From: Escherichia coli
GTDB taxonomy: Bacteria; Pseudomonadota; Gammaproteobacteria; Enterobacterales; Enterobacteriaceae
Direction: 5' to 3' (one strand)
Length of the DNA stretch: 64,000 nt
Assembly: GCF_051903065.1 (NCBI RefSeq)
Contig: NZ_CP178438.1
Shown: in pieces, positions 44,401 to 47,400 of the stretch
Position numbering within the stretch: position 1 is the first letter of the stretch
How the letters are laid out: each line of letters opens with the position of its first letter
Program-made: the position numbers

Positions 44401-47400
44401 AACAATGTCTGTTGATAGCCGAATCGCCAGTACTCTACAGAGAAAGACCCGAGTTAGGGGCTGGGATCAGAGGTTGTTCGTATGGTCGTTACCTTCTGCT
44501 GTTCAGGGTACTGGATACTGAAGTTCGTATCGAACGTATCGTTCATGGTTCCCGGGATATCAACAGGGTACTTGCAGAGCCAGACGACAAACCATCAGAT
44601 CATTTCTGGCAGCCATAAACAAAATCTGTGCGTTAACGCTCCCTAACACAGGTAGCCAGGTATTTTATAAATCTCTGTATTTTGTTGTCACTTCGATTCC
44701 GCGATTCAGCATATCGAACCAGACAAAATGATTACAACAAACCACAAGAAAGAGGGATTATAGCGTCAAAAGAATTCGAATTGCACATGGGGGCCTCATT
44801 GGTGGCCTCAAAAAGAACAAGGATAAAACAGTCGATACAAAACAATTGGTTATATAACCAGTTTCATTCCGAGTCCGGGCACCACTATTCATAAGGCCTC
44901 GCTGCAAAGCGGGGCTTTTTCACTTTCTGGCTACGGTAGATTTCTGGCCATTGCAAAGCATTATCTATTGGCTGGTTTTTTTCGCCTTTTCACGGATGTT
45001 CGTGACGTTTATACACCTCAGTACCCTCTGATATACCTTCTCTCTGCTGCCTGAAAACAAGAAATTCAATAGGTTAATAATTTATGCGTTTGTCCATCTA
45101 AAGGCGACAGTTGCCACAGTATCTAAACTGACTGATGCAAAGTCCCTCTACCCGGTAAGGTATCAGGACCATCAACGCAGACTTTTCGCAACAACCACTA
45201 CCAAAATACCGCGTAAATAACCTTCCAGAACAAGCATGACTTTTTTAACTCTCTTTTCCCCACCTGAGAAGCACCTCTTCCGCAATCCCCACAGGCAAAA
45301 ACTCCTGCTCCAGACGACCACGCGGTAAACGGGTTAAGTAGCGATAAAAATCGGCCTCCTCGTTAAGCAAGCCATCAGGTACAGCTTCCTTCGCTATGAC
45401 CGGTTCTGGAACGGCGCTATGACTGGCATACTGCTCAAACAACTCACGGTTCATGAGCAGGGCATCAAGCGTCGGACGACAACGCCTGGCTCTCGCCAGC
45501 ATCAGTAGTCCCCAGCTATCCATGTCCCCCCAATAGGCAACGCGTTTTTCATCCAGAACAGAACTGGATAGCCATTGCACGTCCAGGCCACAGCCTAAAA
45601 TCGCGATAGTGTCAGATAATGCTGGAAGATGATGCAAACACTGCTCATTTTCAACCACCAGCACTTGCGACGCGGGTAATGTTGTTTCCGCCAGTTCCGC
45701 CGTTGTTACCCGGCATTTTTTAAAAGGAAGCAAGCCGGGTGATAATGGTACAACTAAAACCCAGTGACTGGACTCATCAAAAGCATCAAGAAAAGTTGTT
45801 AATCCCTGCTCGCTGGCTTCTCCTGAAAATCGCACGTCCAACTGACCATAGTGTTGTTCCACAAACGTAATTTCGGCAACCGTCCACTGTGCCCAGTGAT
45901 TACGGTAATGCTGCGTTTTATCCACCATGTCAGACCTCCCGGGTATCAGTCTCGTTGTTTTTCCTGCGCCAGCGTAAAGATTTGAGCCCGGAGTTGTTGT
46001 TCAGCCTGCAGGACCGCCTGCTGACGCTGCAGTGAGACTTCAGGGAGCAACTTCAACTGCCGAAGCTGCTCTTCTACCGGTACGGTCTGCCGGAAGCTTG
46101 TCAGCATGCCAAAGACCTGCGATTTAAGCTCACTGACGGTAATGTATTTTCCTCTCTGACCATCAAGCGCATTCAGTTTATGGGCAAGTGCCTGAAGCTG
46201 TGTCATTCCTTCATGCCAGCCATTCATTGTATCGACAGGAAGTACTGAGACATTAACCTGTTGCTGCCACTGCTGTGTCAGAGGCTTAGCCTGCTCCGGC
46301 CACAACGACTGAGCTTGTTCTGTAAGTTTTCTGGCATAAGTGATATTCCAGTCAGGAGGTGATTTATCCAGTCGGGCCAGCTGCTGCTGTGTCTGTGCAA
46401 TAAGATCCTGCGGTAACGGAGTCTGCTGACGCAACATCCGCAGCTGTTCAGACGTGAGAGGTGCAGGGAACGGAGCCAGTGAAGCAGCTAGCTGATTCTG
46501 TAGAGGGTCTGGCCGGTGAATAAAATGCCAGCTCCACACTGAAACTATGCTTATCACCAACATGGTACACATCCCGGCGGCAAAGGATTTCCACTTTTTA
46601 ACCGGAACAGGCATTGTCGACAGCACTTCCACATTCGGCTGCGACTGCGGTTCCCGTTGAGCAACGTAAACCCACTGTACTGCACTCCCTGGCGTATCTT
46701 CATTCGGTCCACCAGAAAAGTCTCTCGTGGATGCTATCGCATCATTTGTCACGGTGGCAGGCAACCCGATACCAGGCTGAATGCTCGAGCCGGTACTGGT
46801 TATGCCATTGCTGTTTTCCAGCCGGGCAGCACTATTGTGCATCAGGATACGCAATGTATCGAGTTGGCTGAGATGTTTTAGCTCCAGGCGCTGTAGTACC
46901 TCTCCAAGGCCTGTAAGCAGTTGCTCCACCCGGTACAGCTGGTTGATGTCGCTGTAATTTAACGGGAGCGATCGCATTCGTTGCTGCAGGCGCTGACTCA
47001 GGCTGCTGAGGATTTCCATGCGGGCATGAACTGGATGCGGCCACAGAGTCCCCCACTGATGGCTTATCAGTGCCTCGAGTATCGCCAGCCCTTCATTGAG
47101 CCCGAATAAGCCAGCCAGCTGCGTACGCGCAAGCGTATACCAGGCTGCCGTTTGCAACTCCACGCCGTTCTGCTCAAACAGTGAGAGACAAAGTTTTTCG
47201 ACATACTGCCAGCTCACATCCGGGCGAGCCGGATGTGTTAGCTTACTCAGTTCATCACGCAGGGCGGCATAATCCGGTAGCATGCGCGGGTCGCCGCCGG
47301 TTTTTAATTTACGCTTGGGGATATCATTCATGGTCAGTTGTCCATTAGACGTACCAGGGGCTATTAAAGGGTATTGTTTATGCGGCTTCACTTTCTGCAT

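What the first reader, a model, noticed from the sequence alone, without database searches (positions are those of the whole stretch)
44862..44884. tRNA-Phe 3'-end direct repeat marking the distal boundary of a pheV/pheU-type island
A 22-23 nt match to the 3' end of tRNA-Phe without the rest of the tRNA is the classic direct repeat left by integrase-mediated insertion at a phe tRNA gene. Everything to the left (at least the CP4-type element, probably the whole composite accessory region) is then island DNA. The glc genes to the right match the chromosomal neighbourhood of pheV in E. coli K-12 (from memory).
Basis: partly seen in the sequence, partly recalled or inferred. Interest (0 to 1): 0.4.

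Follow-up and report, generated by a model that had tools for sequence, protein, structure and literature searches.

The report
Right-end scar of pheV genomic island
This short copy of the end of a phenylalanine tRNA gene is the well-known right-hand junction (attR) left when a large mobile genomic island, here one carrying antibiotic-resistance genes, inserted into the pheV tRNA gene of E. coli; it is real but ordinary.

Summary
Window 44866-44884 is an exact copy of the last 19 nt of E. coli tRNA-Phe. It is the only copy in the window, and no tRNA gene lies in the window.

It is the attR of a pheV genomic island (GI-pheV), of the published "19-bp" attR type.
- An empty site exists. In strain PapRG-06-5, intact pheV joins the same right flank at the same nucleotide.
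- Genomes whose island is 100% identical to the window have intact pheV and a P4-type integrase 24.4 kb left of window position 1. The island is therefore about 69 kb.
- The same island end and repeat are joined to three different right-hand sequences in other genomes. The switch always falls at the repeat.

The DNA just right of the repeat is not core chromosome. It is a 5.5-kb remnant of older accessory DNA: a Wadjet JetD fragment, type VI secretion remnants and an IS1. glcA follows. Also, the island is composite.

The closest named relative is SMS-3-5_GI-pheV. Verdict: already known, low interest.

The parts
44862..44884 (+). attR direct repeat. It is a 23-nt copy of the tRNA-Phe 3' end, with the exact 19-nt core at 44866-44884. 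The two bases after CCA (CT, to 44886) are also shared with the attL of W2-5 and with the empty site.
   Evidence: PMC11537424 Table 1 (19-bp attR type)
44694..44861 (+). Conserved terminal arm of the island (inferred P' arm). It is non-coding and is shared with SMS-3-5, E24377A and CFT073 GI-pheV, even where the last cargo genes differ (ParDE against AbiE). It contains a 20-bp near-palindrome, AATTGGTTAT/ATAACCAGTT, that abuts the core (44844-44863).
   Evidence: alignment A4
44893..44928 (+). Displaced intrinsic terminator of pheV: an 11-pair hairpin followed by a T run. In the empty-site strain the identical sequence follows the intact tRNA directly.
44032..44618 (+). parD-parE toxin-antitoxin pair, the last genes of the island
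25061..44031 (+). CP4-44-like 'yee' module. Genes include YfjI, inovirus Gp2-family, GTPase, DUF932, antirestriction, RadC, CbeA/CbtA, DUF5983, DUF957 and DUF4942. This is the usual distal module of GI-pheV.
   Evidence: PMC11537424
1..25060 (.). Inner part of the same island: end of the type I R-M M subunit gene, DEAD/DEAH helicase, thymidylate synthase, dGTPase-family gene, pap remnants, ISCR2-floR-tet(A)-strAB-sul2 resistance region and an IS1. It is 100.0% identical to W2-5 and more than 100 other complete genomes.
45245..45928 (-). Right flank: C-terminal fragment of Wadjet JetD, annotated as a pseudogene in relatives
45946..49580 (-). Right flank: type VI secretion remnant. It holds VasL/ImpA_N, a GIY-YIG/T5orf172 fragment, tssE, tssJ and a tssG cut at 49580.
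49581..50348 (-). IS1 copy with no target-site duplication. It joins the truncated tssG to the region just downstream of glcA, which fits an IS1-mediated deletion.
50458..61047 (.). Core chromosome of the pheV neighbourhood: glcA, glcB, glcG, glcF, glcE, glcD, glcC, yghO

Best explanation
The 23-nt element is attR, the right-hand junction of a genomic island inserted in the tRNA gene pheV.

Mechanism. A P4-family tyrosine integrase encoded at the island's left end recombined the island's attP with the 3' end of pheV (attB). The exchange lay inside the 19-nt identical core ATTCCGAGTCCGGGCACCA. This rebuilt an intact tRNA gene at the left junction (attL) and left a partial tRNA copy at the right junction.

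Bases left of the core (TTTC and onwards) come from the island's attP arm, which is why they differ from the tRNA. Bases right of CCA are the original pheV terminator and downstream DNA.

Shown here: the repeat, the empty site, the upstream pheV and integrase in genomes with an identical island, and the fact that sequence relationships switch exactly at the repeat.

Inferred: that the integrase catalysed the event, and which of the two integrase types did so.
For: - Exact 19-nt tRNA-Phe 3' end, unique in the window, 0.01 expected by chance.
- attL/attB/attR triad (A1). PapRG-06-5 has yqgA-pheV and then the window's right flank with nothing in between. W2-5 has pheV followed by the island's left end. 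The window has the island's right end, the core and the flank.
- In W2-5 (100.0% identical over window 1-25000), tRNA-Phe(GAA) and a 394-aa integrase with Arm-DNA-bind_3, Phage_int_M and Phage_integrase domains lie 24.4 kb upstream. No other copy of the core lies between them and the window.
- SNP switch. The window has 0 differences from the CUVET17-972 island over 41000-44886 and diverges from 44887. It has 159 differences from 23CRST027 over 41000-44808 and none over 44809-49750. The change of relatedness falls in a 78-bp interval that ends in the core.
- The same island arm and repeat are joined to three different right-hand sequences in complete E. coli genomes: the yghD type II secretion flank (76 genomes), the JetD'/type VI flank (9), and the left end and integrase of a second, canonical GI-pheV in tandem (378).
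- A different island, with the other published attR type (23 bp, one G missing), sits on the same type VI flank in strain 33F4.
- The published survey of GI-pheV lists this class of attR and uses it to define island ends (PMC11537424). The general att mechanism is reviewed in PMC7545054.
Against: - The window's own genome is not among the 5,426 complete genomes searched; the best match to the junction is 99.5-99.6%. The intact pheV and integrase are therefore inferred from relatives, not seen in this assembly.
- No excision product or circular form can be observed with these tools.
- The terminal arm next to attR is shared with islands whose integrase is only 43% identical to the one next to pheV in W2-5 and SMS-3-5. 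The integrase that made this junction is therefore uncertain, and the present composite may no longer be excisable.
- A homologous crossover inside the last 78 bp of shared sequence would give the same SNP pattern.
Confidence: 0.93

Rival explanations
1. The repeat is an old, inherited attR, but the present junction in this strain arose by homologous recombination. A large donor fragment carrying the W2-5-type island replaced a related resident island. The right crossover fell in the last stretch of shared island sequence, with no fresh integrase-mediated insertion.
For: - The closest backbone relatives (23CRST027, 23CRST031, ECNB21-M121) share the same tssG'-IS1-glcA deletion and already carry a related island at pheV. 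Its yee module is about 98% identical to the window's over 38200-44895.
Against: - The crossover would have to fall in the last 78 bp of about 6.7 kb of homology. That is roughly 1% under a uniform model, and a few per cent allowing for the uneven lengths of identical tracts.
- The same exact breakpoint is seen with three unrelated right-hand contexts.
Confidence: 0.2
2. A chance similarity, or the decayed remnant of a duplicated tRNA-Phe gene, unrelated to island insertion.
For: Only the last 19-23 nt of the tRNA are present, and the upstream bases differ from the tRNA.
Against: - A chance match is expected 0.01 times even with 3 mismatches allowed.
- The sequence left of the repeat is not degraded tRNA. 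It is a conserved island arm found in 1,136 of 5,426 genomes, and those matches nearly always run to the end of the repeat.
- An empty-site genome exists.
Confidence: 0.01
3. The repeat marks an island at the other identical gene, pheU, or it marks the outer limit of all horizontally acquired DNA at this locus.
For: - pheU and pheV have the same sequence.
- Some genomes carry up to three copies of the island arm.
Against: - The right side continues into glcA-glcC-yghO, the K-12 pheV neighbourhood.
- Relatives with the identical island have yqgA-pheV on the left.
- The DNA right of the repeat (44885-50348) is itself variable accessory DNA. It is a type VI cluster of more than 35 kb in PapRG-06-5, type II secretion genes in most other strains, and is cut by an IS1 here.
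Confidence: 0.02

Closest known systems
SMS-3-5_GI-pheV (E. coli SMS-3-5, 91.9 kb; PMC11537424 Table 1)
   Same: - The integrase protein is identical (WP_001218742.1) to that of genomes carrying the window's island.
- The pheV-integrase-raffinose module is 99.5% identical over 11.1 kb.
- The right-hand architecture is the same (transketolase fragment, IS1, ProQ-like gene, yee module, ParDE, arm, attR) at 94-96% identity.
- Both have the 19-bp-core attR type.
   Different: - The middle cargo differs. SMS-3-5 has iha, sit and aerobactin genes. The window has type I R-M, helicase, thymidylate synthase, dGTPase and the floR-tet(A)-strAB-sul2 region.
- The attR differs at one base outside the core (TTTT against TTTC).
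- The right flank in SMS-3-5 is an IS110 fragment and kps capsule genes, not type VI remnants.
Canonical GI-pheV of uropathogenic E. coli (CFT073 PAI-pheV, EC958/ST131_GI-pheV) and of E24377A
   Same: - Same insertion site.
- Same distal yee module.
- Homologous terminal arm from window 44694 onwards.
- Same '19-bp' attR type beginning TTTC/TTTT.
   Different: - Their integrase (420 aa, intP4) is only 43% identical to the 394-aa integrase of the window's island type.
- The CFT073 and EC958 attR carries a G-to-T change inside the core; the window's core is perfect.
- Their last cargo is AbiE, not ParDE.
GI-pheV with the 23-bp attR type (PAI V of strain 536, H10407, 55989 and others)
   Same: They use the same tRNA 3' end as attachment site. 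One such island sits on the window's own type of right flank in strain 33F4.
   Different: - The repeat keeps TTCGA but lacks one G (TTCGATTCCGAGTCCGG-CACCA).
- The island arm left of it is unrelated (A2, A4).
she/SHI-1 island of Shigella flexneri at pheV; P4-like tRNA-integrating islands in general
   Same: Integrase-mediated insertion at the tRNA 3' end gives attL and attR repeats, and excision needs the integrase plus a directionality factor. This comes from the review PMC7545054 and from my own knowledge of Sakellaris et al. 2004.
   Different: Not compared at sequence level here. The cargo is unrelated.

Membership tests
GI-pheV (tRNA-Phe-integrated genomic island) attR | Direct repeat identical to the 3' end of tRNA-Phe at the distal island end | tested here: met
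   19/19 exact and 21/23 ungapped; unique in the window
GI-pheV (tRNA-Phe-integrated genomic island) attR | Intact pheV with a P4-type integrase gene immediately downstream at the other end | not testable with these tools
   The feature lies outside the window and this strain's assembly is not available. It is met in genomes with a 100%-identical island: W2-5 has tRNA-Phe(GAA) and a 394-aa integrase 24.4 kb upstream of window position 1.
GI-pheV (tRNA-Phe-integrated genomic island) attR | An unoccupied site exists in which the tRNA joins the same right flank at the repeat | tested here: met
   PapRG-06-5: yqgA-pheV is followed directly by the JetD'/VasL/type VI flank. Homology to the window begins at 44863.
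GI-pheV (tRNA-Phe-integrated genomic island) attR | Chromosomal position in the pheV neighbourhood (yqgA ... glc operon) | tested here: met
   glcA-glcC and yghO lie to the right. The K-12 gene order is shown. The left side (yqgA) is seen only in relatives.
GI-pheV (tRNA-Phe-integrated genomic island) attR | Mosaic island content with a distal CP4-44-like yee module | tested here: met
   PMC11537424
GI-pheV (tRNA-Phe-integrated genomic island) attR | Excision or integration by recombination between attL and attR | not testable with these tools
   Only indirect evidence is available. Relatedness switches exactly at the core, and the same island end has three different right-hand partners.
Canonical intP4-type GI-pheV (five alleles intP4.1-intP4.5; 95% of the reference intP4 genes at >=94% nucleotide conservation) | Integrase next to pheV belongs to the closely related intP4 group | tested here: not met
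   The integrase in genomes with the identical island is 43% identical in protein to the CFT073 and E24377A intP4. It is identical to the divergent SMS-3-5 integrase. Only a 46-aa C-terminal remnant of a canonical-type integrase is present, inside the island.

The most novel reading that the evidence does not exclude
The roughly 69-kb composite island, including its chromosomal floR-tet(A)-strAB-sul2 region, may still move as one unit between E. coli lineages by site-specific recombination. The enzyme would be the divergent SMS-3-5-type integrase, acting on an attR whose arm is shared with canonical intP4 islands.

Supporting observations:
- The island is 100% identical in backbones that differ by about 1.8% in the adjacent glc region (H40 and H67).
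- The identity stops exactly at the 19-bp core.

If true, two integrases only 43% identical would share a core site and a right arm.
Probability: 0.25. Interest if true: 0.4.

Novelty: already known. Interest (0 to 1): 0.15.

Why it matters
The repeat fixes the right-hand limit of a large chromosomal island that carries resistance to phenicols, tetracycline, streptomycin and sulfonamides. That is useful for annotating this genome.

It adds nothing new about how such islands work. GI-pheV and its attR types have been catalogued in thousands of E. coli genomes (PMC11537424).

The modest added value lies in three points:
- This island type is a composite with a non-canonical integrase.
- Its end is found joined to three different neighbours exactly at the repeat.
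- In this lineage it sits beside a decayed type VI secretion / Wadjet region rather than the type II secretion genes seen in K-12.

Tried and rejected
- Looked for the intact tRNA in the window. There is none.
- Looked for a second, degenerate repeat that would indicate tandem islands. None was found with up to 3 mismatches in the window, in the 24 kb upstream in W2-5 or in 47 kb of the PapRG-06-5 type VI region.
- Tried to find the window's own genome among 5,426 complete E. coli genomes. The island part matches many genomes at 100%, but the junction plus flank matches at best 99.5-99.6%, so the source genome is not in the collection.
- Searched Rfam around the repeat and found nothing.
- Considered that attR belongs to a canonical intP4 island whose integrase survives only as a remnant, with the raffinose/394-aa-integrase element as a later tandem arrival. 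This is plausible but unresolved, because the same integrase and right-end pairing recurs in SMS-3-5.
- Considered the 10-nt TTCGATTCCG at 44692-44701 as a relic of a second att site. It coincides with the start of the conserved arm, but it is only partly conserved in E24377A and CFT073, so I treat it as unproven.
- Searched the literature for this resistance island under pheV + floR and found no relevant paper.

Full report
**Observation**

The window reads TTTCATTCCGAGTCCGGGCACCA at 44862-44884. The last 19 nt (44866-44884) are identical to the 3' end of E. coli tRNA-Phe(GAA), CCA included. This was checked against the intact genes that ARAGORN calls in W2-5, PapRG-06-5 and SMS-3-5 and against those annotated in CFT073 and E24377A.

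The 19-mer occurs once in the window even when three mismatches are allowed, against 0.01 expected from shuffles. No tRNA gene is present anywhere in the 64 kb, and Rfam reports nothing at 44300-45400.

**What it is: the attL / attB / attR triad**

A search of 5,426 complete E. coli genomes with 43800-46000 showed that the sequence splits at the repeat. Many genomes share only the left part, a few share only the right part, and six share both.

- Empty site. In strain PapRG-06-5 the order is speC-yqgA-tRNA-Phe, followed immediately by the window's right flank. Homology to the window begins at 44863, inside the tRNA.
- Left junction. In W2-5, which is 100.0% identical to window 1-25000, the intact tRNA-Phe and a tyrosine integrase lie 24.4 kb upstream of window position 1, next to yqgA. 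No other copy of the core lies in between.
- Alignment. Alignment A1 shows the classical pattern. The tRNA and right flank appear together in the empty site. The tRNA and island left end appear together in W2-5. The island right end, core and right flank appear together in the window.

The island is therefore about 69 kb, and all of window 1-44861 lies inside it. Just right of the repeat, at 44893-44918, is a hairpin followed by a T run. The identical sequence follows the intact tRNA in the empty-site strain, so this is the displaced pheV terminator.

**Evidence that the repeat is a recombination joint**

First, a SNP comparison.
- Against the island of CUVET17-972, the window has no differences over 41000-44886 and diverges from 44887.
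- Against 23CRST027, the nearest relative for the right-hand chromosome, it has 159 differences over 41000-44808 and none over 44809-49750.
- The change of relatedness therefore falls in a 78-bp interval that ends in the 19-bp core.

Second, 240-nt junction probes show the same island arm and repeat joined to three different partners.
- The yghD type II secretion flank: 76 genomes.
- The JetD'/type VI flank seen here: 9 genomes.
- The left end and integrase gene of a second, canonical GI-pheV in tandem: 378 genomes.

Third, strain 33F4 carries an unrelated island end with the other published attR type (23 bp, one G missing) on the same type VI flank.

Fourth, the island is 100.0% identical in strain 035152, whose adjacent glc region is only 98.2% identical to the window (H40, H67). 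The island has therefore been exchanged between lineages more recently than the backbones diverged.

A homologous crossover in the last 78 bp of about 6.7 kb of shared yee-module sequence could mimic the SNP pattern. That is unlikely, roughly one to a few per cent.

**Mechanism**

By established knowledge of P4-family tRNA-integrating islands (review PMC7545054), the integrase recombines attP with the tRNA 3' end. This regenerates the tRNA at attL and leaves a partial copy at attR.

Here the bases left of the core (TTTC...) come from the island arm. That explains the two mismatches to the tRNA. The integrase in genomes with the identical island has the Arm-DNA-bind_3, Phage_int_M and Phage_integrase domains. 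The catalytic step itself is inferred, not shown.

**Comparison with what is known**

A 2024 survey of GI-pheV (PMC11537424) defines island ends by exactly this repeat. It lists two main types.
- A 23-bp type: TTCGATTCCGAGTCCGG-CACCA.
- A 19-bp type: TTTCATTCCGATTCCGGGCACCA in CFT073 and most ST131 (EC958 carries a second T substitution), and TTTTATTCCGAGTCCGGGCACCA in E24377A and SMS-3-5.

The window's version, TTTCATTCCGAGTCCGGGCACCA, belongs to the 19-bp type and has a perfect core. The 268 bp ending in the repeat occur in 1,136 of 5,426 genomes, 134 of them at 99% identity or more.

The closest named island is SMS-3-5_GI-pheV.
- The integrase protein accession is the same as in W2-5 (WP_001218742.1).
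- The pheV-integrase-raffinose module is 99.5% identical over 11.1 kb.
- The right end has the same IS1, yee module, ParDE, arm and attR at 94-96% identity.
- The middle cargo differs.

**Composite nature of the island**

The 394-aa integrase is only 43% identical to the 420-aa intP4 of CFT073 and E24377A, which are 96% identical to each other. The paper likewise singles out the SMS-3-5 integrase as the outlier.

Yet the terminal arm (44694-44861) is homologous to the arm of those canonical islands (A4). In addition, W2-5 carries a C-terminal remnant of a canonical-type integrase (83% identity over 46 aa) 19 kb from pheV. A weaker 22-aa integrase fragment lies at window 4866-4931.

The simplest reading is accretion of two or more islands at pheV, with loss of the internal junction. 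Which integrase made this attR, and whether the composite can still excise, remains open.

The repeat is the distal boundary of this island, but the DNA to its right is not yet core chromosome. Window 44885-50348 holds the following:
- a JetD C-terminal fragment,
- a VasL/ImpA_N gene,
- a GIY-YIG/T5orf172 fragment,
- tssE, tssJ and a tssG cut at 49580,
- an IS1 (49581-50348) without target-site duplication.

In PapRG-06-5 this region is a complete type VI secretion cluster of more than 35 kb, followed by fimbrial and Tad pilus genes. In K-12 and most strains the same position holds yghD-yghJ (type II secretion and SslE). In the window an IS1-associated deletion has joined the remnant to a point 110 bp from glcA.

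**Limits**

The window's own genome is not in the complete-genome collection; the junction matches at best 99.5-99.6%. The upstream tRNA and integrase are therefore inferred from genomes with an identical island. Excision was not and cannot be tested here.

**Verdict**

This is a real and correctly interpreted feature of a thoroughly described kind. Novelty: already known. Interest: low (0.15). The most novel reading still open is that this 69-kb multidrug-resistance island remains mobile as a unit through a non-canonical integrase. I give that a probability of about 0.25.

Noticed in passing
window 13441-22099: A chromosomal multidrug-resistance region inside the pheV island: ISCR2 fragments, floR, tet(A)/tetR(A), aph(6)-Id, aph(3'')-Ib and sul2. 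Window 1-25000 is covered at >=80% in 123 complete E. coli genomes from humans, poultry, dogs, a giant panda and river water, and the best matches are 100% identical. A pheV + floR literature search found no paper describing it.
   Followed up: partly
window 45245-45928 (-): A JetD C-terminal fragment (Wadjet anti-plasmid system) lies directly beside the pheV terminator. In JNEC-KY174, JNEC-KY202 and CFIAFB20190167 the same position is annotated with DUF3322 and DUF3375 proteins. This suggests that a complete Wadjet system once sat there.
   Followed up: partly
window 45946-50348; L006 (PapRG-06-5) 1-47000: The region downstream of pheV is polymorphic. Most strains and K-12 have type II secretion (yghD...yghJ). 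A minority have a type VI cluster of more than 35 kb plus fimbrial and Tad pilus clusters with no integrase or repeat. In the window this has been cut to 4.7 kb by an IS1 without target duplication.
   Followed up: partly
L015 (TA8571) 31619-35964; Tandem arrays are common. In 378 of 5,426 genomes an island arm and the 19-bp repeat are followed directly by the leader and integrase of a second, canonical Phe-tRNA island. In TA8571 the second island carries a phosphoethanolamine transferase gene and is cut by IS1B next to gss.
   Followed up: partly
L004 (W2-5) about 14033-14170; window 4866-4931 (+): Integrase gene remnants lie inside the island. One is a 46-aa C-terminal piece 83% identical to the canonical intP4. 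The other is a weaker 22-aa piece in the window, next to a transposase fragment. Both are in the orientation expected for former island left ends.
   Followed up: partly
window 44692-44722 and 44844-44863: Small motifs in the terminal arm. TTCGATTCCG, identical to tRNA-Phe positions 54-63, sits exactly where homology with the CFT073-type arms begins. TATCGAACCAG and TATATAACCAG form a repeat pair. A 20-bp near-palindrome abuts the core. These may be protein-binding sites; this is untested.
   Followed up: no
window 1-11577: A cluster of possible anti-phage or nucleotide-metabolism genes in the island: type I R-M, DEAD/DEAH helicase, MazG-like protein, thymidylate synthase with an adjacent hypothetical gene, and a dGTPase-family protein. 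Not examined further.
   Followed up: no
window 59905-61047 (-): yghO is intact in the window, whereas the nearest backbone relative 23CRST027 has an IS1 inserted in it. This accounts for the two-piece alignment.
   Followed up: no
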